This document shows, piece after piece, positions 9,986 to 39,964 of a DNA stretch of 39,964 bases. Made by a program: the position numbers and the translations under genes. The DNA is from a virus. Lineage: Duplodnaviria > Heunggongvirae > Uroviricota > Caudoviricetes. The DNA is taken from positions 64,001-103,964 of the IMG/VR virus record IMGVR_UViG_3300048672_000524. The stretch is one strand, 5' to 3'. Numbering within the stretch: the stretch's first letter is position 1; each line of letters opens with the position of its first letter. The notes beneath the pieces were generated by a model. It was not told the origin of the DNA. It saw only the letters and a list, made by a program, of their open reading frames with translations, and made no database searches.

Positions 9986-10564
9986 ATGGGATTAGATTTA
10001 TTTACATTAGCTGAATATAAAGCTTATATGGGTATTACTAATCCCAGCGATGATGCAGCTATTAGCGCATTAATTCCAAAAGTTAGTAATATCGTAAAAA
10101 CTATTTGCAAAAGAACCTTCGTAGACTATGTAAATGATAGTAAGGTAGAAGTTTCTAGAGGTGGCAAAGGTTACTTAGATCTATCAGAATATCCGGTTCT
10201 ATCAGTATCGTCTGTAGAGTTTTCTGATACATATGGTCAATCTTACACTACTCTTACAGAATTTATAGACTATATAGTCGATGCGGAAGCTGAGAAAGTA
10301 GTATTTATTGCCGGCCCGTATAACTCAAATGTATCACAGCCTAATAGATTTAAGGTTACGTATACTGCAGGATACGAAGAACTACCAGTAGACCTAAAAC
10401 TAGCCTTATTCGATCTAGTTACCTACTATAGACGTGGTGACGGAGCAATTCACTCCCATAAGAATCCAGGTTCTAATACTGTACTTATTGACTATATTAC
10501 TAATAATAAGTTACCAGCACATATTAGTCGTATCCTAGAACTTTATATGGCACACTATGGCTAA
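9986..10564 (+). CDS. head-tail adaptor / head completion protein (T5 p144-like)
   Basis: Position after the capsid gene; 'TLAEYKAY', 'VTYTAGYEELPVDLKLALFDLV', 'LPAHISRIL'. Confidence 0.85.
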   Translation: MGLDLFTLAEYKAYMGITNPSDDAAISALIPKVSNIVKTICKRTFVDYVNDSKVEVSRGGKGYLDLSEYPVLSVSSVEFSDTYGQSYTTLTEFIDYIVDAEAEKVVFIAGPYNSNVSQPNRFKVTYTAGYEELPVDLKLALFDLVTYYRRGDGAIHSHKNPGSNTVLIDYITNNKLPAHISRILELYMAHYG

Positions 10565-11924: not shown

Positions 11925-12361
11925 GCAGAAGAACAAGTATTATTAATGCTATCGTAGAAAAACTAAGAACCATTGATGGTACTGGAAGCTTCAAGACTAA
12001 TATCTATGGGGCAGCATACGGTAAGTTAAAGTTCTGGGACGAGATTCAGCAGTTTCCTGCAATCTATCTAGTTGCAGGAACTGAGACTAGAGAGTACCAC
12101 CCTTCCGATTTTACCTGGGGATACTTAAATATCTCTTTAAAGGTATATTGCAAAGGACCCGATTCCGGTGATGAACTAGAAAGTCTACTAGAAGACGTAG
12201 AGCTAGTACTTCATGATAATAGGAATCTAGTATATGATCCAGTAACTCTAGATCATACTACTGAAATATTGATTACAGCTATAGTAACTGATGAAGGATT
12301 ACTAGCTCCCTACTCAATAGCAGAATTAAATCTGCAAGTAAGATATCAAGTATCACATTAA
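11921..12361 (+). CDS. tail terminator protein (T5 p142-like)
   Basis: 'RRTSII.AIV', 'EIQQFPAI', 'TDEGLLAPYSIAELNLQVRY'. Confidence 0.85.
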   Translation: MSRRTSIINAIVEKLRTIDGTGSFKTNIYGAAYGKLKFWDEIQQFPAIYLVAGTETREYHPSDFTWGYLNISLKVYCKGPDSGDELESLLEDVELVLHDNRNLVYDPVTLDHTTEILITAIVTDEGLLAPYSIAELNLQVRYQVSH

Positions 12362-12450
12362 GGCCGCCATCGCCTTACAATCTACGATAGTGCGTACAGA
12401 TAAATATCTAGTCAATCTTTAGTAGATTTACCTAACTACAGGAGAAATCT

Positions 12451-13890
12451 ATGGCATCATCATTTAATCTATTACGTAATAGTAGAGTATTCTTTACTAC
12501 CGACGTAGCAGCGGGAACTGGTATTGTAAACCAGGGTACCCTAACTGCACCAGGTACTCAAGAACTAACTATTCTTGATAACTTCTCATTCTCACAAGGT
12601 GTAAATAACGACGTTATTACTGTATCAGAAACTGGTAATACTCCAGCTCGTGGTCAACGTAGCTTCAATACTGCACTAAATCCAGTTGAATTCTCATTCT
12701 CAACCTATGTACGTCCTTACGTATCAGGCACTGTTAAGGCTGACGAATCAAATCTTTGGAACGCTCTATTTAACGATAAGGCTCTTTCAACTGCTGCTAC
12801 TACCATTGGTACCGCTGCTACTACAGCAAGCTGCACCACTGCGGGTGTACTTACTATTGTTAGTACTGCGCTAAATACTCTAACTCCAGGTGCTATCTAC
12901 ACTGCTAAGGGTATTACAGGTGCTTTTGCTAGTCAGTTTAACGCTCCTTTCAAGGTAACCTCAAGTTCAGCTACTACCCTAATTGGTCAGTACTTAACTG
13001 CTCCAGCTAACGCGGCTTCTCTTGCAGCAGCGGGTGTTACAGTAGGTGTTTCATTCACTCAAGTTGCATGGAACGAAAACGTTGGCGTTGCTGCAGATAC
13101 TTCAATCGGTAATACTGCATACTCAGAACTAACAACTGCTCGTTCAAACATTAACCAACTACTACCATTCGGTCTAGTTGTTGTTATTGATAGCGTAACC
13201 TATGTAATTGATAACGCTGCACTTGATCAAGCCTCTATCGACTTCGGTCTAGATGGTATTGCTACAGTTCAATGGACTGGTAAAGCTACCGCACTGCGCC
13301 AATTAGCACAAACTACTATCGTAGGTACTACCCTAACAGGTGGTGCGGCGGGCACAGTTACTGGTAAGTCAGCAGCTGCTTCAACTCGTTATATTACCAA
13401 TAAGCTATCAACTGTAGCAATCAATGCTAACATCGGTGGTGGTGGTACTACTTATAACGTACCTATTACTGGCGGTAGCATCCAAATTAGCAATAACATT
13501 AACTATGTTACCCCTGCTAACCTTGGTGTTGTTAATACACCTATAGGTTACTACACTGGTTCACGTGCTATTACTGGTTCGCTAAACGCTTACCTACGTG
13601 CAGGTACTGGTTCTGGTCAGCTAATGAGCGATATGCTTGCTGTAGCTTCAACCACTATTGAACCTAAGTTCCAGTTATCTATTGCTATCGGTGGTAGTAC
13701 AAATGCTACTCGTGTGGAGGTTCTGGCAAACGGCGCAAGCTTACAGATTCCTACAATCGATGCACAGTCAGTTATCTCAACAGTAATTAACTTTACCGTA
13801 CAGGGTGCTGATGCTATTCAAGGTATCGCAGGTGCTGCTTACGACCTTGAAGCAACTAACGATCTACGTATTCGTTACTTCAGTAATTAA
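12451..13890 (+). CDS. major tail tube protein (T5 pb6-like)
   Basis: 'LLRNSRVF', 'RGQRSFNTALNPVEFSFSTYVRPY', 'RAITGSLNAYL'; codon usage like the capsid gene; AGGAG RBS. Confidence 0.9.
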   Translation: MASSFNLLRNSRVFFTTDVAAGTGIVNQGTLTAPGTQELTILDNFSFSQGVNNDVITVSETGNTPARGQRSFNTALNPVEFSFSTYVRPYVSGTVKADESNLWNALFNDKALSTAATTIGTAATTASCTTAGVLTIVSTALNTLTPGAIYTAKGITGAFASQFNAPFKVTSSSATTLIGQYLTAPANAASLAAAGVTVGVSFTQVAWNENVGVAADTSIGNTAYSELTTARSNINQLLPFGLVVVIDSVTYVIDNAALDQASIDFGLDGIATVQWTGKATALRQLAQTTIVGTTLTGGAAGTVTGKSAAASTRYITNKLSTVAINANIGGGGTTYNVPITGGSIQISNNINYVTPANLGVVNTPIGYYTGSRAITGSLNAYLRAGTGSGQLMSDMLAVASTTIEPKFQLSIAIGGSTNATRVEVLANGASLQIPTIDAQSVISTVINFTVQGADAIQGIAGAAYDLEATNDLRIRYFSN

Positions 13891-14878: not shown

Positions 14879-17800
14879 ATGGCCGATAATATCGCTAATA
14901 TTACTCTCAAGGTAAAAGCCGAGGGTATGACCGAGAATGTAAAGAATTCTCAGCTAATCAAAGATAACTTAACTGCTGCAAGTTCAGTTTCAAATAAAAT
15001 TAACTCAAAAGTAGCTTCTGCTACTTCACCAACTGCATCTGCTGCTAGAGCAGGTGCACGTACGCCTATTGAAAACCTAGACTATGCAGTAGGTAGATCG
15101 ACTATCGGTACTGGTGCTGCATCAAGAGACTTTGCTAAGCAAGCTCAAGGACTAAGTGGTTTAGTACACCTATACGCTACTTTTGCTGCTAATATCTTCG
15201 CAGCTGGTGCAGCATTCAGAGCACTTTCTAGTGCTATGGATACTAGCAATATGGTAAAAGGTCTAGACCAACTTGGATCAGCAGTAGGTAAGAATTTAGT
15301 ATTTACTGCTAAACAATTAGCTATTGTATCAGATGGTGCTCTGTCTCTAAAAGATGCGATGCAAGCAACAGCTATGGCGTCCTCTGCAGGTCTTAGCTCA
15401 GATCAAATCTCAAAACTAGGTGAAGTCGCTAAGAAGTCATCACAGGCTCTAGGTAGAGACATGAGTGATGCGTTCTCTCGTCTAAGTCGTGGTATTACTA
15501 AGTTAGAACCTGAACTACTAGATGAACTAGGCTTATTCACTAAAATTGGTCCTGCTACTGAAAACTATGCTCGTTCTGTAGGTAAATCCGTAACAAGTCT
15601 TACAGACTTTGAAAAGCGCCAGGCTTTCGCTAATGCAGTTCTAAAAGAAGGTTTAGATAAATTCAGTGGTATTAACCTAGAATCTAACCCTTTTAGTAAA
15701 TTACTAGCTTCTGCTACTAATCTAATGCAGACTGGTTTAGAACTAGTAAATAAAGTACTAGGTCCTGTTGCTAAGCTACTTTCTGAATCTCCTACAGCTC
15801 TACTAGGTGTTATCACTTTAATAGGTGCTAAGCTATTATCTACAGCTATGCCAGCGCTTGTACATTGGCGCGAAAACTTAAAGGGTGCTGCTGTAGATGC
15901 TGCAAAAACTGCCAAGGCTTTTAGGGACTCATTCGGTGATGAATTCCAAAGTAAGCTAGATCAAGTATTCAAGATTCCTGATCTACAGAAACAGTTAAAG
16001 AAAGCTGAAGATGACATTGTAGCTTTCAAGAAGAATACTTCTGGAGCTATTGGTGGTATTGATAGTATAAAGAGTAAATCTTTAGGTAGTATCTTATCTG
16101 ACCCTATTAATGATCAAACTAGCAAGAATTTATCTGGTGTACAAAGCTTACTTACTGGTAGACTTAAACTACTAGCTGCAGATGCAGATGGTACTAAGAA
16201 GTTAGAAGCTGCAAAGAAAGCACAACTAGATACTGAAGTTAAGGGTCTTACTCAAGTAATCGAACAGACTAAAGCATTACGTGCTTTAGAAGATGCTAGA
16301 GCTAAAAAGAAGATTGAACTTGATACAGCATATGCTGCACAGCAAACTTCTGCGGATAAACCTGTAGGATTCCTAGATCCTGAAAGAATTGCTACTGCTA
16401 AAGCTGTGAAGCTAGAGCAACAAGCTGCTAAGGCTGGCATTGTATCTAATGCTGCATATAATGCTTCAATTTTAGGTGTACGTGGCAGCTGGCAACTTCT
16501 TAATCAAGAAATTGAAAAGAATGGTATCACGGGTATTTCTAAGTATACTACTCTAGCTAAGGGTGGGTTAACTGCAGTAGCCACAAGAGTAATGGGTATT
16601 GCTAGTGCCTTTAGTAGTATTGGTATGGTAATTGCCGTAGCAATTGGTGCTTTCCAACTACTAGATTCTTGGTTTTCTAATAACTCCAAAGAATCAGCGG
16701 CTACTAGTGATGCATTTGAAAAGCTACACAGTACTGCAGCTCTTGTAGATGAAGTACTTGGTAACATAGCTAAGAAAGATCCTTTAGCTGCTATTTCTAC
16801 AGCCTCTATTAATGCTAGAGCTTCTAGTCTTAATGAGTTAGCAGATACATTAGCTTCTACTTTTGATAGAGTAAAAGCACAGATTGATAAAACTAATTGG
16901 TGGGATTCACTAATTAATGGTACAAAAGGTTTAGTAGGTAAAGATGTAATTTCTTCTAGCGCTAAAGAATTTGCGTACAGTATTACTCAGGCACTAAAGG
17001 TAGCAATGCCTGGTGCAAAAACAGATAAAGCACTGGGTGATGTATCTACCCTATTAGGAGTAGACCCTAGAGACTTCAAAGCAGTAATGCAAGTAGTAGG
17101 TTCTAGTGAAGAAGTATTCCTTAACCTAGCTCCTAAGGTTACTGCTAGACTTAAAGAACTTGGTATTGAATTAGGTAATACAGCATCTAATGCTAAGCAA
17201 CTAGATATGTCTTTTGAGGCAGCTAGTAAGCAAATGGATATCGTACTTAACTCAGCTGTACCAAGTGAGCCTATGGCTAAACTTGGTATGGATTTCATTG
17301 CCATTGGTAGTGAAATGAGTAACGCACTTAAAGACCCTATTACTTCTTTAAGTCAGCTAGCTGAAATTAGTGGTAATACTGCTAAGCTACGTTTCTTTCC
17401 AAGTGATATAGCACAAAACTTACAATCTAACTCTGCAGAAATTAAGAAAACCGTATCTTATATTTCCGAACTAACAGCAGCAACAGAACAGCTAAATGCT
17501 AAAGAATCCGCATTAGCTGCTAAGCGTAAAATGTGGACTGAGCGTTACATGGCTGCTAGTGGTGGTAAGGACTCTGCTTATATCCAAGGCCAAATTAACA
17601 AAGAAATGGGTGGAGAAGAAAAACAAGTTTCTCAAGCCAAATCTTATATTAGTGGGCTACTAGCTACCCAAACAAAGATTATTGAACCTTATATGGATAG
17701 GTTCAAGAAAGCTAACGCTGAGGTCTTTGCTATTGGTGCTGATATGGTAAGCACTGCAATTGCACAAGGTTTTACTAAAGCAGCTATTACTGTTCAAACA

Positions 17801-20800
17801 GCTTTTGCGGGTGCTTTAAGTGGTACAGTAGCAGGAGCAGACCTTGGAGCTTCATTACAAAATCAGTCAATTAGCTTACAAATAGCTTCCAATAACGCTA
17901 CATTAAGTTTAGTAGAAGCAACGGAGAAGCTACGTAGTACTAATGAAGAAACTAACCTACGCATGGCGAAGCAGGATTTATCAATTAACCCTAAGGGTTC
18001 TAGACTTGATAATGAACGAGCACTACATTCGATTGATGATAAACTAGAAGCTGTAATTAAAGCGCGTGACTTATATAAAGGTCCTCGCGCTATGCAAGAG
18101 ATTGCAGGGACTAATGGACTACGTAGTGATAACGAGTCAGTAGTTGAAGCAGCACGTGGTAGACTAGCTAGCGTAGAACAGAAGACAGCTATTGCTAGTC
18201 AAAACGCTCAATTAGCTGCACAGCAGAAGTCTAATCTAATTAACAAAGAGCTCCAACAACGCAGTATATTAGCAGGATACGCTAAGCAAGAGCTTTCATA
18301 TGAAGGTAATTCCTTATCTAATAATAAGACTATGCTAGATATGCAGCATCAGTATGCTGATTTCTTATCTGAAGAATCTATCTTAAGTAAGAATTCACTA
18401 GATGATAAAATTGCGGCCAACAAATATACTTTAGAACAGTTCGATTTAGTAAAGAAAATATTTGATGCACAGTACGTTATTGATAATTCTGGTAATGATA
18501 GCACAAAGGCTAAAGCGCTTGCTTCTCAAACAGAATACTATAACCAGTTAGCTTCTTTAGGGAAGAAAGAGACTCAAGATGAGAATACTCGTAATGCTCA
18601 AACTGCTCAATTTAAACTAGCTAACAATAAAAAGGTTACTGACGCACAATTAGCCTCTGAAGAATTAGTATTTAATACTCGTTCAATAGTTGAGAATACT
18701 CTACTAACATTACGTGAAGATAACTTAAGTAAATTAAGTACTTTAGGTGCTACTAGTCCAGAAGATGCAGCACGTGAACAAGGTATTCTAGATATTGAAA
18801 AAGAACGCTTACGTAATAAAGAACAATTATTTAGACTAGATAAAGAAAGTAAAGCAGCGCAAGCTGATCTAACCTTAAAAATTGGATCAACAGCAGATGG
18901 TGCTGAAAAAGAAGCCTTAAAGCAGAAACTAACAGATACACAAGCATACTATAATTCTAGTATTGCTGCTGAAAATCAATTAACTCAATCTAGAGTAGCG
19001 GGTGTAGCTGCTTTAACTGATCAAAAAGTACAATTAGCTCAAGTAGCTGATATTACTAATAGTTTAAATGTACTATTTAAAGATCTCGGTAGTACAATGG
19101 GTGGAGTACTATCTGCTATTACTAGCATGGGTACTTCAATGAAGGCTCAAGCTGATGCGGTAGAACAAAATACTGCTGCACAAAAAGCAGCCCAGAGCAT
19201 TATTAGTGATGGCGTTAGTTCTGTAAAAGCTAAAGAAGATGCAGAAGCTGCCTTAACTGATGCAAAGACTAAAGGACTACTACTAGAGAAAAGTGGTACT
19301 AAACTAGAACTTGATAATGCTTCTAAAGTAACTGGAGCTACTAAGAAATTATTTGCCGAGAAGACGTTTGCGTTCAAAGCGCTAGCTAATGTTGAAAAGG
19401 CTATGCACATTGCTAAATTAGCAATGATGATTAAAGAAATGTTCTTAGATACTACTGTAACTAGTGCGCATATTGCTAATACTGCTGCCGCAGCTACAGT
19501 AGATGGTGCAGGTGCTGTTGTTAACCAAGGTAAGGGTGATCCTTATACCGCGTTTGCTAGAATGGCAGCCATGGCTGCAATTGTAGCAACAGTATTAAGT
19601 AGCATTGGTGGTAAAGGTAGTAAGATTGCTATACCAGCAGGTATGTCTGCAAAAGATAGACAAGAAACTCAAGGTACAGGATACTCTCACGATGCTCTAA
19701 CTGGTAAAAAGGTAGAGAATGGGGGTGGAGTATATGGTGATCCAGCCGCGCATACACAGTCAATTGCTAAGTCATTAGAAATTGTTAAGGCTACATCTAT
19801 TGAAGGGTTAGACTCTTCAAATCAGATGGTTAAACTACTATCTAATATCGATGTCGGTATTAACGGAGTAGCTAAGTCTTTATACGGTATGCAAGGTGTG
19901 AGAACCTCACTAGATAGTACTAGTGTTACTAAGAATAATTTAGGAGCCGCAGCTAGCGCTGTAGCAGGATTAATCTTAGGCGGCCCAGTAGGGGCTATTA
20001 TTGGTGGTATTAGTTCTAAGGTTAGTGGTGCTATTTTTGGTAAAACTACTGTAACTAAAGATTTAATCGATTCTGGTGTGTCTCTAAAGGGTTCACTAAT
20101 TGATCTAGCTACTAATGCCAATAAAGCTGCTCAGGCTTTCCAAAATATAAATACTACTACTAAAAATAGTGGTGCACTATTTGGATTAATTGGTGGTGGA
20201 ACTAGTAGTAAAGTTTCTACAGAGTTCTCAAATCTAAGCCCGGAGTATACTAAAGAACTTCAATCAGTATTTAGCTACTCAGTTAATTTAATGGAACAGT
20301 TAGGTAGTTCTTTAGGTAAATCTAAGGAATCCGTCGATGCTATTCTTAAAACTATTGACGTAAGTAGTTTTACTTCATTAAAAGATTTAACTGGACAAGA
20401 CTTCGTAGATGCTTTATCTGGAATGATTAATACTGCTCTCGATAAAGCTAGTACTGGCCTATTCTCAGATATTGTAAATAAGTATAAAACTATTGGCGAA
20501 TCCGCACTACAAACCGTAGTGCGTGTAATTGATAGTAATGATAAGGTTAATTTAGCTCTACAAGCTATGGGTGCTAATACTGTTGACGCAGTACTTAATG
20601 CTCAAAATGCAGCTGGTAAGCTAACTAAGACTGTACTAACTATGACTACTACCTCTACAGGTGGTATTTATAAATGGTTAGGAAATACACTTAAAGCTAT
20701 TACTACTGGTACTACTAGTATTCAGAAGTATACAGCTGAAGATATTAAACAAGCAAGTATTGATATTACAGAGGCTCTAGTAGCTGCTGCTGGTAGTCTT

Positions 20801-22282
20801 GACAAATTTGTATCGCAGTCAAAATTCTTCACAGATAACTTCTTAACTGAATCAGAACGTTTAGCTCCAATTCAACAATCACTAAACGATAAGTTTGCTG
20901 CTCTAGGTATTTCAGGTATCGATTCAAGAGATGCCTTTAAGAAACTAGTTTTAAGTCTCGATCTTACTACTAAGTCAGGTCAGGATATGTACCAAAGTCT
21001 AATGGATATGGCTTCTTCTTTTGCTATGGTTTATCCACAGCTACAGAAGTCAATGACTGCGGAAGAATATAGAACAAAAATACTTAGCGATGAAATAGAA
21101 ATTCAAAAGCTGCTTGGTAACGTTTACAAAGCCACTCTAATGAGTAGAGAAGAAGAGCTTGCTCAACTTGCTCTATACCCAGAAGAACAGGCTAAAGTAC
21201 TAATTGCTAACCGTAAAACAGTATACGCTTTACAAGATGCAATAGCTGCTACTAACCAACGTGTTAATATACTTAAAGCCGAAGGTAAGACTACTGAAGC
21301 TCTAACCTTACAACGTAAGCTAGAGCTACTAAATATGGATGATAGACTACGTGCTAGTCAAGAGTATATTTATGCTCTAACTGACGAAGCAAGTATTTTA
21401 TCAGATCTTACTAAAGCACGTGATACTGAAAAAACTGCACTTGATACAACTATTAGTAGTATCAAGGGATTTGTTGATAATATTAAGAAGTATAAAGCTT
21501 CATTACTGAGTGGTTCAGGTTCTATCCTAACTCCTCAACAAAAATATCAACAAGCCAAGCAAGAACTAAATAAACTAGCTTCATTATCTCTATCTCCTGC
21601 TGTTACTGATGCTGAAAAGGTAGTACAGAAGGATGCTTTAGATAACTTAAGTAGTGCTGCGCAAGCTTTCCTAGATTCCTCACAAGGAATGTTTGCTAGT
21701 TCTGATCAATATGTTACTGATTACAATTCAGTAATGCAAATTCTTGATCAAACTTCAAACGTACTAGGGGAACAACAAAGTGCTGCTCAACAACAACTAG
21801 ATCAATTAGTTTCAAGTACCGCATTCTTGGATAGTATTAATGCCAATACTAAAACAACTGCTCAACTACTATCTGATTACTTTGCTGCCCAGCAGGCAAC
21901 TGCCCTAGCAAAGATCGCCGCCGATGCGGCACCTTCTGCAGCTATTACTTCTGCAGATGTACAAGGTAGTTTAGCTAGTTTAGTAGAAACCGCTTCAAGT
22001 ACTAATGTATCAATTCCAGAAGCTCCAAGTAGAGCTACTGCTCAATCAGTACCTGTCGTTGATACTACTATGACAGATCAAATTTCATCTTTAACAGCTC
22101 AGATATCTTCTCTACAAGCAGAAGTTGCAGGTCTAAGAGCAGACCAGGCTGCACAAACAGCTGCACTTATTAATACTAATGTTGCGGCTACTACTAGTGT
22201 TGCTACTGCTGTAACCTCTACTGCAAAAAATGCAGCGGTTACACAAGTATGGAACAGTAGAAATATCCCAGCAATAGCGTAA
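14879..22282 (+). CDS. tape measure protein (2467 aa)
   Basis: Follows the TACs; long Ala/Leu/Ser/Lys helical ORF; N-terminal 'LYATFAANIFA...LGRDMSDAFSRL.RG..KLEPELLDELG' resembles T5 pb2. Confidence 0.93.
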   Translation: MADNIANITLKVKAEGMTENVKNSQLIKDNLTAASSVSNKINSKVASATSPTASAARAGARTPIENLDYAVGRSTIGTGAASRDFAKQAQGLSGLVHLYATFAANIFAAGAAFRALSSAMDTSNMVKGLDQLGSAVGKNLVFTAKQLAIVSDGALSLKDAMQATAMASSAGLSSDQISKLGEVAKKSSQALGRDMSDAFSRLSRGITKLEPELLDELGLFTKIGPATENYARSVGKSVTSLTDFEKRQAFANAVLKEGLDKFSGINLESNPFSKLLASATNLMQTGLELVNKVLGPVAKLLSESPTALLGVITLIGAKLLSTAMPALVHWRENLKGAAVDAAKTAKAFRDSFGDEFQSKLDQVFKIPDLQKQLKKAEDDIVAFKKNTSGAIGGIDSIKSKSLGSILSDPINDQTSKNLSGVQSLLTGRLKLLAADADGTKKLEAAKKAQLDTEVKGLTQVIEQTKALRALEDARAKKKIELDTAYAAQQTSADKPVGFLDPERIATAKAVKLEQQAAKAGIVSNAAYNASILGVRGSWQLLNQEIEKNGITGISKYTTLAKGGLTAVATRVMGIASAFSSIGMVIAVAIGAFQLLDSWFSNNSKESAATSDAFEKLHSTAALVDEVLGNIAKKDPLAAISTASINARASSLNELADTLASTFDRVKAQIDKTNWWDSLINGTKGLVGKDVISSSAKEFAYSITQALKVAMPGAKTDKALGDVSTLLGVDPRDFKAVMQVVGSSEEVFLNLAPKVTARLKELGIELGNTASNAKQLDMSFEAASKQMDIVLNSAVPSEPMAKLGMDFIAIGSEMSNALKDPITSLSQLAEISGNTAKLRFFPSDIAQNLQSNSAEIKKTVSYISELTAATEQLNAKESALAAKRKMWTERYMAASGGKDSAYIQGQINKEMGGEEKQVSQAKSYISGLLATQTKIIEPYMDRFKKANAEVFAIGADMVSTAIAQGFTKAAITVQTAFAGALSGTVAGADLGASLQNQSISLQIASNNATLSLVEATEKLRSTNEETNLRMAKQDLSINPKGSRLDNERALHSIDDKLEAVIKARDLYKGPRAMQEIAGTNGLRSDNESVVEAARGRLASVEQKTAIASQNAQLAAQQKSNLINKELQQRSILAGYAKQELSYEGNSLSNNKTMLDMQHQYADFLSEESILSKNSLDDKIAANKYTLEQFDLVKKIFDAQYVIDNSGNDSTKAKALASQTEYYNQLASLGKKETQDENTRNAQTAQFKLANNKKVTDAQLASEELVFNTRSIVENTLLTLREDNLSKLSTLGATSPEDAAREQGILDIEKERLRNKEQLFRLDKESKAAQADLTLKIGSTADGAEKEALKQKLTDTQAYYNSSIAAENQLTQSRVAGVAALTDQKVQLAQVADITNSLNVLFKDLGSTMGGVLSAITSMGTSMKAQADAVEQNTAAQKAAQSIISDGVSSVKAKEDAEAALTDAKTKGLLLEKSGTKLELDNASKVTGATKKLFAEKTFAFKALANVEKAMHIAKLAMMIKEMFLDTTVTSAHIANTAAAATVDGAGAVVNQGKGDPYTAFARMAAMAAIVATVLSSIGGKGSKIAIPAGMSAKDRQETQGTGYSHDALTGKKVENGGGVYGDPAAHTQSIAKSLEIVKATSIEGLDSSNQMVKLLSNIDVGINGVAKSLYGMQGVRTSLDSTSVTKNNLGAAASAVAGLILGGPVGAIIGGISSKVSGAIFGKTTVTKDLIDSGVSLKGSLIDLATNANKAAQAFQNINTTTKNSGALFGLIGGGTSSKVSTEFSNLSPEYTKELQSVFSYSVNLMEQLGSSLGKSKESVDAILKTIDVSSFTSLKDLTGQDFVDALSGMINTALDKASTGLFSDIVNKYKTIGESALQTVVRVIDSNDKVNLALQAMGANTVDAVLNAQNAAGKLTKTVLTMTTTSTGGIYKWLGNTLKAITTGTTSIQKYTAEDIKQASIDITEALVAAAGSLDKFVSQSKFFTDNFLTESERLAPIQQSLNDKFAALGISGIDSRDAFKKLVLSLDLTTKSGQDMYQSLMDMASSFAMVYPQLQKSMTAEEYRTKILSDEIEIQKLLGNVYKATLMSREEELAQLALYPEEQAKVLIANRKTVYALQDAIAATNQRVNILKAEGKTTEALTLQRKLELLNMDDRLRASQEYIYALTDEASILSDLTKARDTEKTALDTTISSIKGFVDNIKKYKASLLSGSGSILTPQQKYQQAKQELNKLASLSLSPAVTDAEKVVQKDALDNLSSAAQAFLDSSQGMFASSDQYVTDYNSVMQILDQTSNVLGEQQSAAQQQLDQLVSSTAFLDSINANTKTTAQLLSDYFAAQQATALAKIAADAAPSAAITSADVQGSLASLVETASSTNVSIPEAPSRATAQSVPVVDTTMTDQISSLTAQISSLQAEVAGLRADQAAQTAALINTNVAATTSVATAVTSTAKNAAVTQVWNSRNIPAIA

Positions 22283-33089: not shown

Positions 33090-33101
33090 TGGAGGATGTT
33101 G

Positions 33102-33692
33102 ATGTCAGCACCTACAAAAACAAACCTTAGAATATATCAAGGAAGTAATTTTGAGCAGGTAATACGATGGGAATCTAATGAAAAAGGTTATGTAAATATA
33201 ACTGGAATTAGTAAGAGTGCCCCTATTATTATTACTGCTCCAGGACACTTACTACCGGCAGGTTGGAGAGTACTGGTAACAGATGTATTAGGTATGAAAG
33301 AAATAAATTCTTCAGATACCTATCATAAGATTACTGTAAAGACTGTAGACTCAGTAGAAATTAATAACCTTAATTCTATGAGTTTTTCAGCATATACTTC
33401 TGGTGGTGTACTAACCTATAATAAGCCCGTAGACTTAACAGGTTTTACGGCAAGAATGCAAATACGAGCTAGTATTTCCGACAGTACTGTACTAGAGGAT
33501 TTAACTACCGAAAATGGTAAAATTGTTATAGATATTGTTAATAAATCTATAACAATTAATTTAAGCGCTACAGCTACCGCTGCGTATACATGGAGCGCTG
33601 GTGTATATAGTCTAGAAATGGTATCTCCGTTAGGAACAGTTACCCAGATTCTAGTTGGAAATGTTGCTTTAGTAAAAGAAGTAACTAGATAA
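33102..33692 (+). CDS. baseplate upper/adaptor-like protein with an inserted FCCH-like beta domain
   Basis: 'IYQGSNF...PVDLTGFTARMQIR...GVYSLEMVS' scaffold interrupted by 'ITGISKSAPIIITAPGH...VTDVLGMKEIN...AYTSGG'; start moved to 33102 (GGAGG 6 nt upstream). Confidence 0.65.
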   Translation: MSAPTKTNLRIYQGSNFEQVIRWESNEKGYVNITGISKSAPIIITAPGHLLPAGWRVLVTDVLGMKEINSSDTYHKITVKTVDSVEINNLNSMSFSAYTSGGVLTYNKPVDLTGFTARMQIRASISDSTVLEDLTTENGKIVIDIVNKSITINLSATATAAYTWSAGVYSLEMVSPLGTVTQILVGNVALVKEVTR

Positions 33693-33706
33693 TTTAAGGA
33701 ATAATT

Positions 33707-34120
33707 ATGGCTTTAAGATTTACTACTGCTCTACGTAACGCACAACAAGATGCTATTACTTCAGCAGCTGGCGCAAGTTGCCAGATTCGCCTATATTCAG
33801 GCACAATCCCTACCAATGCTGATACGGCAGTAGGCGCTCAAGTACTACTTTGTACTCTAACTGGTAATGCTACATTTGCGCCTGCCGCTTCGGGTGGTGT
33901 ATTAACACTAAACGCTATTACCTCAGGTTCAGGTACTGCAGGTGCAGGTGCTGGTACTAACGCTACATGGTTCCGTATTACTAATGCTGCAGGTTCTACA
34001 ACCATTATGGATGGTACTGTAGGTATTTCTGCTAGTGATCTTAACCTTAATAACGTTAATATCGCTACTGGTCAAACCGTTGCTATCTCTAGCTTCACCA
34101 TTACTAACAATAACGTTTAA
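33707..34120 (+). CDS. small virion structural protein (137 aa; candidate filament subunit)
   Basis: Conserved phage family 'ALRNAQ.DAI...IRLYSG..P..AD...WFRI...MDG.VG...DL.L.N..I..GQ.V.I.SFTIT'; TAAGGA RBS; codon style (cgt/aac/ttc/tca) like the capsid and tail tube genes. Confidence 0.7.
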   Translation: MALRFTTALRNAQQDAITSAAGASCQIRLYSGTIPTNADTAVGAQVLLCTLTGNATFAPAASGGVLTLNAITSGSGTAGAGAGTNATWFRITNAAGSTTIMDGTVGISASDLNLNNVNIATGQTVAISSFTITNNNV

Positions 34121-34147
34121 TAGTAATTAGCTAGTAAGGGGTATTTA

Positions 34148-37093
34148 ATGCTAATAGGATTACTTCCTATAGCTAGTAGCCCCATTGCGTCAGAACAAAT
34201 AGATATTAGTAGTAATACTGTGACAGGTATCACGGGTTCCGCAGCTGTAGTACTAGTTAAAGCTAGCTCTACAGCTGTTGGTGCTGTAGGTATTACTGGT
34301 ATTGTTACTTATACTATTCCAAAGGCTACAGCAGCAGTTACTGCTGTAGCTGGTATTAGTGGAGCAGGACCACCTGTACAGGCAGCTAATACTGCTGTAG
34401 CTACAGGTACAGTGTCGGCTTCTAATATTACTGGTACCGCAAGTGCTACTTTAGCTATATCGTCCTCTAATATCACTGGTACTACTGGTATTAGTGGTTC
34501 TTCTGCCAATACTCTACAAAAAGCTACAAGTACTATTACTAGTACTACTGGTATTAGTGGTTCTTCTGCCAATACTTTACAAAGTAATACTGCAAGTGCA
34601 GTAGGCTCCTCTAACCCTAATATTACTGGGTCGGTAGCTTCTACTTTAGTATCCAGTACTTCCAGTGCTGCTGCTACTATATCTACTATAGGTGCTTCAA
34701 GTATTACTACTCAAAGTAATACTAGTATAGCAATAGGTGGAGAACTAGATAATGGTTCTGCCTCTGTCCTCTTAGTAGCTAGTACATCTAATTCTACTGC
34801 TACTAGTATAATTTCTGGTACTTCCTCTACTAGTACTCAATCTAGTACTTCTATAGCTGCAGGTGGCGAAACTGATAATGGTTCTGCTGCTATCAGTACA
34901 GTATCTTCTACTTCTGTAGTACTAGGCACTGTAGGTATCGTAGGTAGTTCTTCTGTTACTTTACAAGTATCTACAAGTATAGCTTCTGGTGGTGAAATTG
35001 GTAATGGAACTGCTAGTATTGTATCTGCATCAGATAGTACTACTTCTATAGGTTTCGTAGGTATTGATGGTACTTCAAACAATACCATAGAAGCTAACCA
35101 GTCAGAATACAACTTTATAGCTATTGCTAATACATTAGCTTTATCGTACAATCCTAGTGCTGCTACTATAACCAATAATGTATTAACCGATCCTTACGGC
35201 GGTACTACTGCTGGATATATAACTACTGTAGCTACTAACCCAGTTTATAACTTTGTAACTGGAGGTAATAGACAGGTAGTAACTGGTGAACAAGTATCAC
35301 AATCCGTATTTATAAAATACGTAGGTGGTGGCAATTTAGGGTTCCAAATCTACTTCGGTGGTGGTACTTCGCAAGGTGGTATACTACCTATATTTAGTTT
35401 TAATAGTGGTATACTATCTAGAATAGGCGGAGCAGCCGCGGGCGTCATAGATGTAGGCAATGGTTGGTACTTAGTATCAGTTAATTATACTGCTACAACT
35501 ACTAGTGTAAGTTCTGCGTATAACTTCACCGTAAGTCAGAACGGCTTAAATGGCGTAGGTATGCCAATAGGCTCTCAGATAGCCTTCTGGGGTTTCCAAG
35601 CTAACTGGGGTTTAACTACTAACAAGTATATTGCGGCGTACCAAAAAGGTACGTACGGGTACTTACCAATAGTATCTCTTTCCGCAGCTACGCAGGCACA
35701 ACGAGATACTAGCTCTGCTTCAGGAACTACTATTTTAGGTATTTCTGGAACTGTTGCAGTAAGTGATACTTCTAGTACTTCCTTTATTACTGGTACTATT
35801 AGTATTAGTGGTAGCTCTACGAATATTCTGCAGAAAAATACTTCTAATGCTTCTGGCGGAGAAACTGACAACGGTTCCGCTAATATCAGCTTAGTATCTA
35901 GTACTCAATCTGCTACTGGTACAGTAGGAGTTACAGGTTCTTCGCTTAACACTTTACAAAGTAATACTAGTATAGCAGTTGGTGGTGAAATAGATAGTGG
36001 TTCGGCATCTATAACTATATTACCTAGCACTTTAGCTGCTATTGGTACAGTTGATATTACTGCTCTAGTATCTACTATAATACAAAGCAATACTTCTATA
36101 GCTAGTGCTACAATTAACATTACTGGTAATTCTTCCGCTACGAATAGTAGTACTAGTACTGCTTCCGGTACTGTAATTAGCGGTATATCTGGAAGTGTTT
36201 CAAGTACTTTAATTAGTAGTACCCCTACTGCTTCTGGTACTATAAGTATTATTGGTACAGCTACAGATATAGAGTCACTAAGTACAATATCTGTATCAGG
36301 TACTGTAAGTATTTACGGCAGTATTAACTATACTACCACACTAACCACTCCTGCTAGTATAGCTTCTGTACTTATTAGTGGTTCGTTAGTAAGTACTTTA
36401 TTAGTTAATTCTGCAATAGGTGTAGGTTCTGTTAGTAACGTATACTCAGGTTCTGTTACAGCTATATTAAGTAGGGATACTTCAAGTGCATTAGGTACTA
36501 TAGGTATTTCTGGTTCTTTAAGTTACACTCAAAATCCTAATACTAGCAGTACTAATGGTATTGATAATATTTTAGGTAGTTTATCTTATATATTACCTCG
36601 TAACACAGCTAACTCACTTGGTTCTTTAAGTATTATAGGATCTTCTTCTTCTAATACTCTTATAAGAGATAGTGTATTAGCCTCTGGCGGTGAAATAGAC
36701 TCCGGCAGTGCTAATATTAGTATAGCTTCTAATACTTGTAATATTAATGGTACTACAGGTATTATAGGTAGTCTAACCTATAATATAAATACTACTACTG
36801 CTGTATTTGTGGGTATTAGTACTATAAATGGCACTGTAAATGTATATGACGTACCTCAAATTTCAGATGCGTATGACTTTGTACAGTCTACAACAGACTT
36901 TACAGACCAACTAGTTTATTCATCTATTGATTCAGTTATACACCACGTAGCTACTGAACTTATTACGTGGTGTACTATGAGTACAGAAGACGTAGCCTGT
37001 GTAATGGATACTTTAGAAACATTTATAACACAAGAATTAGATACCTCCAATCATACAAACGAGTATATAGAAACCTATGCTGTTACTACTTAA
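34148..37093 (+). CDS. Ser/Thr-rich fibre-like protein with a 21-aa periodic repeat and an inserted sugar-binding-like domain
   Basis: GGE(I/T/L)(D/G)(N/S)G(S/T)A motifs spaced 42 aa apart; 'TTGISGSSANTLQ' repeated at 21 aa; globular insert at ~35100-35640; acidic C-terminus. Confidence 0.75.
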   Translation: MLIGLLPIASSPIASEQIDISSNTVTGITGSAAVVLVKASSTAVGAVGITGIVTYTIPKATAAVTAVAGISGAGPPVQAANTAVATGTVSASNITGTASATLAISSSNITGTTGISGSSANTLQKATSTITSTTGISGSSANTLQSNTASAVGSSNPNITGSVASTLVSSTSSAAATISTIGASSITTQSNTSIAIGGELDNGSASVLLVASTSNSTATSIISGTSSTSTQSSTSIAAGGETDNGSAAISTVSSTSVVLGTVGIVGSSSVTLQVSTSIASGGEIGNGTASIVSASDSTTSIGFVGIDGTSNNTIEANQSEYNFIAIANTLALSYNPSAATITNNVLTDPYGGTTAGYITTVATNPVYNFVTGGNRQVVTGEQVSQSVFIKYVGGGNLGFQIYFGGGTSQGGILPIFSFNSGILSRIGGAAAGVIDVGNGWYLVSVNYTATTTSVSSAYNFTVSQNGLNGVGMPIGSQIAFWGFQANWGLTTNKYIAAYQKGTYGYLPIVSLSAATQAQRDTSSASGTTILGISGTVAVSDTSSTSFITGTISISGSSTNILQKNTSNASGGETDNGSANISLVSSTQSATGTVGVTGSSLNTLQSNTSIAVGGEIDSGSASITILPSTLAAIGTVDITALVSTIIQSNTSIASATINITGNSSATNSSTSTASGTVISGISGSVSSTLISSTPTASGTISIIGTATDIESLSTISVSGTVSIYGSINYTTTLTTPASIASVLISGSLVSTLLVNSAIGVGSVSNVYSGSVTAILSRDTSSALGTIGISGSLSYTQNPNTSSTNGIDNILGSLSYILPRNTANSLGSLSIIGSSSSNTLIRDSVLASGGEIDSGSANISIASNTCNINGTTGIIGSLTYNINTTTAVFVGISTINGTVNVYDVPQISDAYDFVQSTTDFTDQLVYSSIDSVIHHVATELITWCTMSTEDVACVMDTLETFITQELDTSNHTNEYIETYAVTT
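34479..34583 (+). repeat. 42-nt near-perfect direct repeat at a 63-nt period
   Basis: 34479-34520 vs 34542-34583, one mismatch. Confidence 0.85.
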
Positions 37094-37451
37094 TCTATTA
37101 AAAAGCTATTGGAAGCAATTAGCTATAGCTGTTATCTTTTTAGCAGCTGCTTTTACTGCATATAACCATGTTTACCAACGTGGTTATATGGCTGCTGAAG
37201 CTACTTATCAAAAACAAATAGCTACTTATCAGGAACAAGTAGCTAAGCGTATTGATAACGTCGAGAAACTGAGTACGACTTTAGTAGAGCAAAGTAATAC
37301 TAACGCTCAGACCTTATCCAAGGATCTGAGCGTTATTTTAACTACTGTAAAGAATAAGCCTTTATATAAAATTGAAAATGGTAAGTGTAGCCCATCGGTA
37401 GATTTTATTGATAGTTATAATGCCGTTATTTTAAGAGGTAATCAGAAATGA
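37077..37451 (+). CDS. i-spanin-like (Rz-like) protein
   Basis: N-terminal TM helix followed by a coiled coil; overlaps the downstream lipoprotein gene. Confidence 0.7.
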   Translation: MLLLLNLLKSYWKQLAIAVIFLAAAFTAYNHVYQRGYMAAEATYQKQIATYQEQVAKRIDNVEKLSTTLVEQSNTNAQTLSKDLSVILTTVKNKPLYKIENGKCSPSVDFIDSYNAVILRGNQK

Positions 37452-37744: not shown

Positions 37745-38082
37745 ATAACTTAGTAACTTGGTTAATGGCCAATATTGATATCCCTGCAATAGGTTTTGCA
37801 GTTGTAATGGCTATAGGCCTATGGGTTTTAGCTAAAACTCAAGCAAATCCTACTAATGGATTTGATATGGCCGATATGTTACGTGATGATACGGGTAAGC
37901 CCTCTGCACTACGTTTAGGCATATTTGTATCTCTAGCTGCTACTACTTGGGGCTTAATGTACCATATAATCCATACTCGTGGAGAAGTACATGATTGGCT
38001 ATTTCTTGGATATGCTGCTATTTGGTCAGGTTCTGCAGTAGCTTCTAAAGCTATTGAAATATACGGTGGGAAGAAAGAATGA
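37741..38082 (+). CDS. holin-like membrane protein
   Basis: 113 aa, three hydrophobic segments, charged C-terminus 'YGGKKE', adjacent to the spanins. Confidence 0.6.
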   Translation: MNNLVTWLMANIDIPAIGFAVVMAIGLWVLAKTQANPTNGFDMADMLRDDTGKPSALRLGIFVSLAATTWGLMYHIIHTRGEVHDWLFLGYAAIWSGSAVASKAIEIYGGKKE

Positions 38083-39964
38083 GTAGAATATACGAATATT
38101 TTAATGTATCAGGACAGCCACTAGTAGTAGGCCAATATAACTTTAAATATGGTACTAGCTTTAAAAGTCCTGTTCCTATACCTGAGTTAGAAGCTTTGCT
38201 ATCTGCTAGTATTGATAGAAGAATTTCTGAAGATAGTAAGACTATTAGTGCTGATAATGCAGAAGTAGGTATTGGAAGTGTGTCCTTTACAACTGACGCT
38301 AGCGGTGCCCCTACCATCTGGACAAAGAACAGCGCGGGCGGGGATGTGAGTTTCGACATCAGCAAGAATTTGTCGAATTCAGTCCTTGTGGACATGAATA
38401 GAGTGTTCGGGTGTAAGCCGGGGGATGATGTAACAACAGCAATGCAGACGGTGCTGTTGTCTCTGGCGCAGGGCATTGCGCTCGATGTCGTCTTCAGTGT
38501 GCCGGGAACGTATTTCATCAACGGGGCGCAGCAGACGGGGACGGCACTTGGGTACAACTACAGCGGAAGCATCCTGATTCCAGCAATCGCATGGAATGGT
38601 GGAGCGGCGACACCGTTGCGTATTCGCGGAATGAGTCCAATGACGTCCGGTGATCCGTCAACAGGTGACGCTGGCGGAGGCCTTGTGTTCAAGACCACAA
38701 ACAACACAGCAGGCGGTTATATGTTCGCTGCGGTTCCTCAATTCTCGAAGTGGGGGTTCAACTGGACCGGGGTAATGCCCTATTTCGAGAACATCACCTT
38801 CGTGCATCCAACGGACCCACAAGGTGGCTCGGTCAATGTGGAGTGCTGCATACGCGCCAGCTTTGAGCGCATCGTCTGTGCACAGGGTCAACTCAACTCG
38901 GCCAATTTCCCTACAGGATCAGCCGAGGCCATCATCCTCCCGCAATCAAAGAATAACGGCGATGTGCTTGCCAGGGATATCCAGATTCGCGGCTGGGGTG
39001 CGGGAATGCGGCTGAGTGAACACGCGGTTCTGGACAACGTGCAGTTTTCATACTGCAACAGCGTCTTCACCTGCAATGCGGGAGGGCATTTCAATTGGTT
39101 TGGCTATGTAGACGTTGAGGAGTGCGCCACGATCTTCAAGATCAACGCTGCAGCAACTTGTGTCGTGAATGGCTCTCTCGACATTGAGAACGTGGCTGTC
39201 GGCACCTCGTTCGCGCCCACAGTCTTCGCTGATGTTGGTGCTTCCGGTGGATTGCTCGGGCAGTTGGATGTGTTTTGCGACCCATCTGGAAGCCTCGGCA
39301 TCAAAGGCACGGGCAACGTGAAGATGGAGATTCACAACCTGTCGGAGCCGCGCAAGTTCTCGCACCCAGTTGACACCATGCTGCGCTTGCAAAATGCAGC
39401 GCTTCCATCTGGCTCGGCCCCAGGGATGACTTGGCCCACATTCGATGTCTGGAAAGTGGCCTCGGGAAGCTTTGCACTCTCAGCTGCGGGCGTGCTCACA
39501 AACACCAACGCCGGCAGCAGTTCGGCTTTTTTGCCGGTGCGTGATGGCCTCATCGGAGGCTCAAGCCGCCGAGTGCAATGCACCGTCACGTTGCCGGCAA
39601 CCAACTACGACTTCAGCCTTGCGGCGCATCGTCAACAAAGCGGCGCCCTGGCAACGTGGGCGCGCGTCAACAATGGGAACCTGACGTTTGGAATAGGCTC
39701 CTTAGCTGGTGGTGGGCTCATCAAGACCCTTGCCGGTGTTGTCGCGGGTAGCGGAACCTACACCATTGCAATCGACGTCTTCATCGCCAACGGTGTTCTG
39801 GCCTCTGCGAATCTCTACCTGAATGGGGTTCTCCAGTATTCGCATGCATGCAGCGCCGCCCAGCAGTACGGGGCGACGGCAAGTGACCCTTACCTGTACG
39901 ACGGCATCTATCAGCTCGACAACGGCGCGAACGTCACAGGTATGAGCGCCTTCCGCGTGCTCCC
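38079..39964 (+). CDS. tailspike/depolymerase-like protein (3'-partial, >=628 aa)
   Basis: Absent from the ORF track because it has no stop; hand-translated open frame from the ATG at 38079 (ATGA overlap with the holin) to the window end; 'FGCKPGDDVTTAMQTVL' pectate-lyase-3-like start followed by beta-helix-like sequence. Confidence 0.75.
   Translation, partial: MSRIYEYFNVSGQPLVVGQYNFKYGTSFKSPVPIPELEALLSASIDRRISEDSKTISADNAEVGIGSVSFTTDASGAPTIWTKNSAGGDVSFDISKNLSNSVLVDMNRVFGCKPGDDVTTAMQTVLLSLAQGIALDVVFSVPGTYFINGAQQTGTALGYNYSGSILIPAIAWNGGAATPLRIRGMSPMTSGDPSTGDAGGGLVFKTTNNTAGGYMFAAVPQFSKWGFNWTGVMPYFENITFVHPTDPQGGSVNVECCIRASFERIVCAQGQLNSANFPTGSAEAIILPQSKNNGDVLARDIQIRGWGAGMRLSEHAVLDNVQFSYCNSVFTCNAGGHFNWFGYVDVEECATIFKINAAATCVVNGSLDIENVAVGTSFAPTVFADVGASGGLLGQLDVFCDPSGSLGIKGTGNVKMEIHNLSEPRKFSHPVDTMLRLQNAALPSGSAPGMTWPTFDVWKVASGSFALSAAGVLTNTNAGSSSAFLPVRDGLIGGSSRRVQCTVTLPATNYDFSLAAHRQQSGALATWARVNNGNLTFGIGSLAGGGLIKTLAGVVAGSGTYTIAIDVFIANGVLASANLYLNGVLQYSHACSAAQQYGATASDPYLYDGIYQLDNGANVTGMSAFRVL

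What the first reader, a model, noticed from the sequence alone, without database searches (positions are those of the whole stretch)
33707..37093. Highly expressed 137-aa subunit paired with a strictly 21-residue periodic Ser/Thr 'ruler': candidate length-defined filament
Seen: the 981-aa protein keeps an exact 21-aa register. GGExxxGxA motifs recur at 42-aa spacing (checked for three adjacent pairs), and a 42-nt DNA duplication at a 63-nt period shows recent repeat expansion. There are roughly 30-35 units by eye, interrupted once by a globular domain. The small upstream gene has a strong RBS and capsid-like codon bias, implying many copies. Inference: each beta-strand repeat templates or complements copies of the 137-aa subunit, building a long flexible head/neck/tail filament whose length is set by repeat number, like a second tape measure. 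The dense Ser/Thr surface is the obvious substrate for the TPR-glycosyltransferase.
Basis: partly seen in the sequence, partly recalled or inferred. Interest (0 to 1): 0.75.

Follow-up and report, generated by a model that had tools for sequence, protein, structure and literature searches.

The report
Beads-on-a-rope phage fibre gene pair
The small gene is a relative of the "bead" proteins that thread as dimers onto a "rope" protein to build chain-like phage fibres, and the 981-aa 21-residue-repeat protein next to it is most likely an unusually long rope, so this is a new variant of a recently described appendage, not a new kind of machine.

Summary
The 981-aa protein has about 32 units of 21 aa in two arrays, split by a lectin-like domain. 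The register is exact only in the first array.

The 137-aa protein is homologous to solved "bead" proteins:
- A1002 gp40 (PDB 44NX), whose dimers dock on a rope protein by beta-sheet augmentation.
- Phage 7-7-1 garland protein (9RKV).

Gene order matches A1002/KPP25 and GP4 (bead, then rope). In 61 distinct related loci, 42 carry a 21-periodic ORF, and every one lies just downstream of the bead gene. All 6 reverse look-ups found a bead gene upstream. In at least 14 loci a GP4 gp77-type fibre adaptor follows.

The best reading (about 0.6) is a chain-like fibre whose length is set by the number of repeats.

The main counter-evidence is AlphaFold2. With an alignment, it folds the second array as a right-handed beta-helix (pLDDT 60-86, Z 13-17 to tailspikes).

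The proposed glycosyltransferase link is unsupported. This is a new variant of a known kind.

The parts
33096..33692 (+). 198-aa upstream gene (phrog_1084, E1_FCCH-like domain). It sits where A1002/KPP25 has its second bead gene, but no similarity to that gene was detected.
   Evidence: A close homologue was found in only one related locus, L093, in the same position.
33696..33700 (+). Shine-Dalgarno AAGGA, 6 nt before the bead ATG
33707..34120 (+). 137-aa bead gene (phrog_3758 'virion structural protein'); homologue of A1002 fibre I gp40 and the 7-7-1 garland protein gp014
34118..34126 (+). Three consecutive in-frame stops (TAA TAG TAA) ending the bead gene. The rope gene follows in the same frame.
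34136..34141 (+). Shine-Dalgarno AAGGGG of the rope gene
34148..37093 (+). 981-aa repeat protein, the candidate rope
34211..35092 (+). First array, residues 22-315: about 14 units of 21 aa, with exact register from residue 106 and GGExDNGSA variant units every 42 aa
34468..34583 (+). Recent unit duplication: 53-nt copies, 49/53 identical, 63 nt apart
35093..35707 (+). Non-repeat central domain, residues 316-520 (GNGWY motif). It is related to phage proteins with weak CBM_4_9 or Laminin_G_3-type hits, so it is a probable carbohydrate-binding jelly-roll.
   Evidence: It was not folded by AF2 because the alignment had no depth there.
35708..36847 (+). Second array, residues 521-900: about 18 units with slips of 1-2 aa. 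AF2 models it as a three-stranded 21-aa coil (right-handed beta-helix).
36848..37090 (+). Acidic C-terminal domain, residues 901-981: three predicted helices (pLDDT 61-79). It is a candidate attachment domain and lacks the [ED]xRxhxV tail motifs seen in relatives.

Best explanation
[quoted passage not shown] Dimers of the 137-aa protein (the beads) have an incomplete beta-sandwich. An extended strand of the 981-aa protein (the rope) completes that sandwich.

Each 21-aa unit is a short V-x-V/I strand between two invariant glycines, plus a conserved T-Q-A-x-N-T linker. Each unit is one docking site, for a monomer (42 aa per dimer) or for a dimer. The roughly 32 units would therefore carry 16-32 dimers, and the number of repeats would set fibre length at roughly 45-90 nm.

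The lectin-like domain between the two arrays is the probable sugar-binding element. The helical C-terminus probably anchors the rope to the tail.

Shown here: the periodicity, the homology of the bead to solved beads, and the conserved bead-then-periodic-protein gene order. Inferred: that the repeats are the docking sites, the stoichiometry, the length, and the position on the virion.
For: 1. Bead homology. The family profile hits PDB 44nx_B (A1002 gp40) at E 5.8e-15 and 9rkv_A (7-7-1 gp014) at E 2.3e-11. The pairwise match to KPP25 gp07 is 33% identity over the full length, E 1e-14.

2. Literature on these beads.
- In A1002, 11 dimers dock by beta-sheet augmentation on the roughly 300 A fibre-dock rope of gp39 (PMC13730344).
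- In Bas63 the rope runs through grooves in the whisker monomers and completes their incomplete sandwiches, and GP4 has a separately encoded rope (PMC12609058).
- The Milano garland dimers form a beads-on-a-string chain whose string is unidentified (PMC10811340).

3. Synteny. KPP25/A1002 runs bead, bead, rope. GP4 runs bead gp80, then a 325-aa protein with 20-aa periodicity, and later gp77.

4. Association. Across 61 distinct bead loci, 43 of 387 ORFs of at least 250 aa are 21-periodic. All 43 lie downstream of the bead gene, 41 within 1.6 kb, and 42 of the 61 loci are positive. All 6 contigs found through the repeat protein alone carry a bead gene 0-2 genes upstream.

5. Adaptor. In at least 14 loci the periodic gene is followed directly by a PF23148 'GP4 fiber-tail adaptor gp77' gene. 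Many of those ropes end in [ED]xRxhxV motifs, which also occur in the GP4 325-aa protein.

6. Period. It is fixed at 21 aa while the sequence and the unit number (6-23) vary. The A1002-type rope shows docking motifs every 20-23 aa.

7. Codon use. The bead gene's CAI is 0.617 against 0.435 for the rope, which fits many beads per rope.
Against: AF2 with a 30-row alignment folds residues 511-841 alone as a right-handed parallel beta-helix with three strands per 21-aa unit. pLDDT is 60-86 and Z is 13-17 to phage tailspikes.

The unit has three pairs of i/i+2 small or hydrophobic positions and N/Q/T ladders. A 21-22-aa coil is the canonical length for a beta-helix.

The arrays show no sequence similarity to the solved A1002 rope or to the GP4 325-aa protein, and they have a different composition (Ser/Thr/Gly-rich, without Pro).

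This genome has no gp77-type adaptor and only one bead gene.

The same bead family also occurs next to self-folded beta-helical fibres in 7-7-1 and Milano, and without any periodic partner in mycobacteriophages.

No bead-array fusion protein was found.
Confidence: 0.6

Rival explanations
1. The two arrays fold by themselves into right-handed parallel beta-helices, one 21-aa coil per unit and about 15 nm in all. They would form the stalk of an ordinary fibre or adhesin that displays the lectin-like domain. The 137-aa protein would then be an accessory 'garland' or connector dimer that binds this fibre at a few sites, as in phages 7-7-1 and Milano.
For: The AF2 model of residues 511-841 is a beta-helix, with Z 13-17 and rmsd about 4 A over about 300 residues to the Pam1, APK16, phi29 and CBA120 tailspikes, and pLDDT 60-86.

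The sequence pattern shows three inward-facing pairs per unit and Gly at the turns.

The 7-7-1 garland protein is a homologue of the bead. Its gene lies beside a long tail fibre that has a beta-helical middle domain, and it contacts that fibre.

One fusion protein joins a Pfam Beta_helix domain to two tandem bead domains (P0214).
Against: AF2 may produce confident solenoids for repeat sequences (my own knowledge; no paper was checked here). The confidence here is only moderate, and it is seen only where alignment rows exist.

No Pfam beta-helix or haemagglutinin repeat family matches the window protein, and only 1 of 31 arrays gives a weak match.

The variant units put Glu and Asp at the two most conserved hydrophobic positions.

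Some relatives stack four acidic residues per unit with no compensating charge.

This model does not explain the recurring triad with the GP4 gp77 adaptor or the bead-first gene order.

Even the Milano garland is described as a chain that needs an unidentified string.
Confidence: 0.28
2. The Ser/Thr-rich arrays are a flexible, possibly O-glycosylated, mucin-like spacer that holds out the lectin domain. The small protein would be an unrelated minor tail protein that merely shares the operon.
For: The composition is rich in Ser, Thr, Gly and Ala. The ESM Atlas model is poor, with mean pLDDT 0.50.
Against: A spacer would not keep an exact 21-aa period, two invariant glycines and conserved hydrophobic positions across dozens of diverged phages. 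It would also not show a 43-of-43 positional association with the bead gene. The glycosyltransferase homologue is absent from the flanks of all related loci except L069.
Confidence: 0.05

Closest known systems
Chain-like fibre of Pseudomonas podophage A1002 (gp40/gp41 dimers on nozzle-rope gp39; PDB 44NX, 26GP; PMC13730344); the same genes occur in KPP25
   Same: The bead is a sequence homologue (33% identity; profile E 5.8e-15). The bead gene lies directly upstream of the rope gene. The rope has docking sites every 20-24 aa. A globular domain interrupts or terminates the docking region, and attachment is at the C-terminus.
   Different: The A1002 rope is part of the nozzle of a podovirus, has 11 sites, and is Pro- and hydrophobic-rich with barely detectable sequence periodicity. 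Here the rope is a free-standing 981-aa protein in a long-tailed siphovirus, with about 32 strongly periodic Ser/Thr/Gly units. It has one bead gene instead of two, and no sequence similarity to gp39.
Fibre-1 of Ralstonia podophage GP4 (gp80 dimers, separately encoded rope, Ig-like adaptor gp77; PDB 8JOU) and the Bas63/Sf14 collar-whisker complex (PMC12609058)
   Same: The rope is separately encoded and sits next to the bead gene. Relatives of the window's pair carry a gp77-type adaptor gene (PF23148) directly after the periodic gene. They also share C-terminal [ED]xRxhxV motifs with the GP4 325-aa protein. Rope length sets the number of dimers (2 in Bas63, 5 in GP4).
   Different: GP4 gp80 and the Bas63 whisker were not among the PDB hits of the bead-family profile (E up to 10). 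Their kinship to the A1002 beads is structural, as reported in the papers. The window genome has no gp77 homologue, and its rope lacks the tail motifs. I could not read the GP4 paper, so calling the 325-aa protein the rope is an inference from gene order.
Garland proteins of Agrobacterium myophages 7-7-1 (gp014, PDB 9RKV) and Milano (gp125/gp127), with the T4 gp8 / A511 gp105 fold
   Same: 7-7-1 gp014 and gp012 are sequence homologues of the bead (E 3e-13 and 5e-17). They are small dimers present at high copy number (the 7-7-1 paper's 36 homodimers imply 72 chains) and are arranged in chains around the fibres.
   Different: There they decorate self-folded fibres and tailspikes on a contractile-tail baseplate. 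Their genes follow the fibre gene, and no rope has been identified.
Regular-repeat beta-helix adhesins (FHA/HMW1, AIDA-I/TibA) and phage tailspike beta-helices
   Same: The repeats are 19-22 aa. The AF2 model of the second array superposes on them (Z 13-17).
   Different: There is no family-level sequence match. The hydrophobic content is much lower, and there is no catalytic groove or secretion domain. The resemblance rests on a prediction of moderate confidence.

Membership tests
[quoted passage not shown] | Small (about 140-170 aa) bead protein of the gp40 / gp014 family | tested here: met
   Profile against PDB: 44nx_B at E 5.8e-15 and 9rkv_A at E 2.3e-11. BLASTP to KPP25 gp07 gives E 1e-14 over the full length.
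[quoted passage not shown] | Bead forms dimers with an incomplete sandwich that a foreign strand completes | not testable with these tools
   The single-sequence AF2 run failed (pLDDT 41). No multimer tool and no model coordinates were available. Tandem bead domains in the fusion protein P0214 hint at a paired unit.
[quoted passage not shown] | Rope: an extended chain with serial docking sites, not folded on its own | tested here: inconclusive
   The 21-aa units and their spacing fit the 20-24 aa per site seen in A1002. However, AF2 folds the second array alone as a beta-helix.
[quoted passage not shown] | Bead and rope genes adjacent, bead first | tested here: met
   The window, KPP25 and GP4 all show this. 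In the related loci, all 43 periodic ORFs lie downstream of the bead gene.
GP4-type fibre-1 module | Ig-like fibre-tail adaptor gp77 (PF23148) that anchors the rope | tested here: not met
   There is no PF23148 match in the whole 104-kb genome. It is present next to the periodic gene in at least 14 related loci.
Right-handed parallel beta-helix fibre or tailspike | Three-stranded coils of about 22 aa stacked into a helix | tested here: inconclusive
   The AF2 model of residues 511-841 matches at Z 13-17, but pLDDT is only 60-86 and AF2 may favour solenoids for repeats (my own knowledge). Pfam Beta_helix and haemagglutinin repeat families do not match the window protein.
Tape measure protein | Helical protein inside the tail tube, encoded after the tail chaperones | tested here: not met
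   The real tape measure is the 2467-aa protein at 14879-22282 (phrog_3779). The 981-aa protein is beta-rich and is encoded at the end of the tail module.

The most novel reading that the evidence does not exclude
The 21-residue-periodic proteins may be a large, so far unnamed family of ropes. If so, chain-like fibres are a common appendage whose length changes by gaining or losing docking units. They would occur in phages with siphovirus-type tail genes and with myovirus-type baseplate genes, as well as in the solved podophages.

In this long-tailed phage the rope would reach 16-32 dimers, against 2-11 in solved cases. It may fold back at the mid-chain lectin domain, so that the antiparallel first and second arrays fill the two symmetric grooves of each dimer and place the sugar-binding domain at the tip.
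Probability: 0.2. Interest if true: 0.65.

Novelty: new variant of a known kind. Interest (0 to 1): 0.55.

Why it matters
Beads-on-a-rope fibres were described only in 2023-2026, from a handful of cryo-EM structures. In several of those (Milano, 7-7-1, VP1) the rope is still unidentified.

A sequence signature for ropes would let them be found in genomes. The signature proposed here is a 21-aa period, two fixed glycines, a position directly after the bead gene, and often a gp77-type adaptor gene afterwards. It would predict fibre length from the repeat count. It also offers a simple system for testing how a rope sets the number of subunits in a filament.

The bead family is very common: more than 2200 clusters in the protein collection.

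For this phage, the result assigns a likely role to two otherwise anonymous genes at the end of the tail module.

Tried and rejected
- tblastn of the 981-aa protein against 50,697 phage records found no match. The word-based protein search found none either.
- phmmer of the 981-aa protein against PDB found nothing.
- Single-sequence AF2 of the bead was useless, with pLDDT 41.
- I made a read-through fusion of bead plus rope (same frame, P0213) to try docking in one chain. MAFFT dragged the array rows onto the bead columns (A2). The tool also returns no coordinates or PAE, so I dropped the idea.
- An alignment that included central-domain homologues misplaced them on the second array (A3). They were left out of A4, so the central domain and the first array had no alignment depth. 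Their low pLDDT is therefore uninformative.
- The 198-aa upstream protein showed no similarity to the A1002 gp41-type second bead (BLASTP E 59). Only one related locus has a homologue.
- phmmer of the GP4 325-aa protein against all the ropes gave nothing significant. That protein and the GP4 568-aa protein are not in PDB by sequence.
- The GP4 J Mol Biol paper is not held in the library.
- The search for bead-array fusion proteins found beads fused to other domains, but none fused to an array.
- No RNA holder was listed for this stretch. The only run is the probable source metagenome.
- Foldseek of the model against PDB gave no significant hit.
Full report
**Setting**

The window is the last 40 kb of a 104-kb IMG/VR virus contig. 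Earlier notes of this scan call it a distant T5-like phage. I did not re-test that.

The window carries a complete siphovirus structural module:
- terminase, portal, a protease-capsid fusion, connectors and the major tail protein;
- tail chaperones and a 2467-aa tape measure;
- distal tail, hub and several minor tail proteins;
- then a 198-aa, a 137-aa and a 981-aa gene;
- then spanins and a membrane protein.

**The observation**

The 981-aa protein is strongly periodic. Lag-21 and lag-42 identity are about 0.20, against 0.104 +/- 0.009 for shuffled sequence. The signal is in residues 21-315 and 521-900 and is absent from 316-520.

A repeat HMM finds about 14 units in the first array and about 18 in the second. 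The first array is in exact register from residue 106. The second array slips by 1-2 residues several times.

The GGExxxGxA motif sits at 197/239/281, 570/612 and 847.

Two adjacent units are 49/53 nt identical at the DNA level. That is a sign of recent unit duplication, although it is not an exact 42-mer.

The small gene has a good RBS. It also has the highest codon adaptation to the capsid and tail-tube genes of any other gene in the window: 0.617, against 0.39-0.47 typically and 0.435 for the repeat gene.

**What the small protein is**

It belongs to phrog_3758, 'virion structural protein', and to a very large, well conserved family. More than 2200 clusters match, and the best 120 share 61-81% identity at an almost fixed 137-138 aa.

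A profile of the family hits two solved structures:
- 44nx_B at E 5.8e-15.
- 9rkv_A at E 2.3e-11.

44NX is fibre I (gp40) of Pseudomonas podophage A1002. [quoted passage not shown] Each dimer forms an augmented beta-sheet with the rope (PMC13730344).

9RKV contains the 141-aa garland protein gp014 of Agrobacterium phage 7-7-1, present as 36 homodimers around the distal tail fibres (PMC12796354).

Three other papers describe the same arrangement:
- The Milano paper describes its garland proteins as dimers with the fold of T4 gp8 and A511 gp105. They form beads on a string around an extended chain, and in Milano the string is unidentified (PMC10811340).
- The Bas63 paper shows whisker dimers wrapped round a rope that 'completes the incomplete whisker sandwiches'.
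- The same paper states that GP4 has a separate, longer rope protein that carries five dimers and interlocks with an Ig-like collar (PMC12609058).

**What the repeat protein is, judged by context**

Direct searches give only weak hits: 92 at E up to 1e-3. The best of these are phage proteins whose C-terminal halves are also 21-aa repeats with different sequences.

Forward test. I fetched 80 viral loci with the bead family. After removing duplicates, 61 loci remained, and 387 ORFs of at least 250 aa were tested for periodicity. Of these, 43 are 21-periodic. All 43 lie downstream of the bead gene, 41 of them within 1.6 kb. In all, 42 of the 61 loci are positive.

Reverse test. Six contigs were found only through similarity to the repeat protein. 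All six carry a bead-family gene 0-2 genes upstream.

Unit properties. Unit numbers in relatives range from about 6 to 23, and the period stays at 21 (lag 21 far exceeds lags 20 and 22). The consensus unit is x-N-T-S-S-A-S-G-x-V-x-V/I-S-G-S-A-A-S-T-Q-A. It has two invariant glycines six residues apart flanking a short hydrophobic strand.

Adaptor. In at least 14 loci the gene directly after the periodic gene matches Pfam PF23148, 'Podophage GP4 fiber-tail adaptor protein gp77'. Many of those periodic proteins end with 2-5 copies of an [ED]xRxhxV motif.

GP4 itself has the following order:
- bead gp80, which is identical to 8jou_a;
- a 325-aa protein with 20/40-aa periodicity of glycine-flanked strands, which also carries the C-terminal motif;
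- a 568-aa fibre;
- gp77.

KPP25/A1002 has the order 171-aa bead, 147-aa bead, 620-aa rope. The rope's docking region shows [LI]PR-type motifs every 20-23 aa.

A cultured example of the pair is Vibrio phage 367.14. It has a 135-aa bead followed by a 542-aa protein with 21-aa repeats (roughly 14 units), inserted in a myovirus baseplate cluster.

**Most likely mechanism**

The 981-aa protein is the rope and the 137-aa protein supplies the beads. Each 21-aa unit offers a strand that completes the sandwich of a bead monomer. The marked 42-aa super-period would then be one dimer. Alternatively, each unit serves a whole dimer.

On that basis, about 32 units bind 16-32 dimers. Scaling from roughly 27 A per dimer in A1002 gives a fibre of roughly 45-90 nm.

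The central domain is related to phage proteins with weak CBM_4_9 or Laminin_G_3-type hits and probably binds a sugar. The helical, acidic C-terminus (pLDDT 61-79) is the likely anchor.

This genome has no gp77 homologue and only one bead gene, so its attachment differs from GP4. The position on the virion is unknown.

**Counter-evidence**

I used the last AF2 job on the whole 981-aa protein, with an alignment of 30 arrays from relatives (A4). MAFFT placed those rows almost entirely on the second array (the same 30 rows behaved that way in A3). The first array and the central domain therefore had no depth, and their low pLDDT (30-50) says nothing.

Where depth existed (residues 521-830), the model has three short strands per 21-aa unit at pLDDT 60-86. 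Against 48,161 PDB representatives it superposes on right-handed parallel beta-helices of phage tailspikes, with Z 13-17 and rmsd about 4 A over about 300 residues. Foldseek gave no significant hit.

I weigh it as real but not decisive, for these reasons:
- AF2 may produce solenoids for repeat sequences (my own knowledge, not checked against a paper here).
- The confidence is moderate.
- No Pfam beta-helix or haemagglutinin repeat family matches the window protein, and only 1 of 31 arrays gives a weak match.
- The GGExD variant units put acidic residues at the two best-conserved hydrophobic positions.
- Some relatives would stack four uncompensated acidic residues per coil.
- A beta-helix stalk does not explain the bead-periodic-gp77 triad.

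The bead family also accompanies self-folded beta-helical fibres in 7-7-1 and Milano. A 21-22-aa coil is the canonical beta-helix length. The rival therefore keeps about 0.28.

The glycosyltransferase link is unsupported. A homologue of the 417-aa enzyme occurs in the flanks of only one related locus, L069. An earlier follow-up found that the enzyme co-varies with a tail-tube domain.

'Second tape measure' holds only in the loose sense that rope length sets the number of subunits. The protein is not a tape-measure relative.

**Verdict**

It is therefore not categorically new.

What appears to be new, as far as the papers read here show, is:
- the recognition of a large family of sequence-periodic, free-standing ropes tied to the bead gene;
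- their presence in a long-tailed siphovirus;
- the extreme length and the mid-chain lectin-like domain of this example.

Direct binding remains to be shown.

Noticed in passing
window 38079-39962 (+), runs off the contig end: The 628+-aa ORF after the lysis genes is compositionally foreign. Its GC3 is 0.60, against 0.16-0.41 for the other genes in the window. Its codon adaptation to the capsid and tail genes is the lowest in the window (0.22). It has no PHROG or Pfam family. It may be a recently acquired tailspike-like gene.
   Followed up: partly
L088 (phage 7-7-1, NC_019519) 8334-12740: 7-7-1 has a second bead paralogue, gp012, which matches our family better than the published garland protein gp014 does. 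Two genes downstream of it also have lag 21 as their top self-similarity: gp010 (GDWxYPxY motifs) and gp009 (APMADA motifs). They could be looked at as candidates for the unidentified string of the garland or for the unidentified capsid fibres.
   Followed up: partly
L005, L009, L011, L016, L019, L026, L053, L056, L058, L096 (C-termini of the periodic proteins); L103 17948-18925: These proteins carry 2-5 tandem copies of an approximately 11-aa [ED]xRxhxV motif at the C-terminus, always next to a gp77-type adaptor gene. Similar motifs occur in the GP4 325-aa protein. They may be the strands that interlock with the Ig-like adaptor ring.
   Followed up: partly
P0214, P0234, P0235: Bead domains occur fused to the C-termini of other modules. 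P0214 has a Pfam Beta_helix domain followed by two tandem bead domains. P0235 has a Laminin_G_3 domain followed by one bead. This suggests that beads can tether enzymes or adhesins.
   Followed up: no
window 34118-34147: The bead gene ends in three consecutive in-frame stops (TAA TAG TAA). The rope gene starts 21 nt later in the same reading frame.
   Followed up: no
window 37077-37093 and 37199-37245: The Rz-like spanin gene starts 17 nt before the rope gene's stop. It also contains a 21-nt tandem repeat of 2.2 copies.
   Followed up: no
L100: In one contig the bead, periodic and gp77-like genes sit between the head genes and the head-closure and tail-completion genes, not at the tail tip. 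The module therefore moves between neck and tail-end positions in different phages.
   Followed up: no
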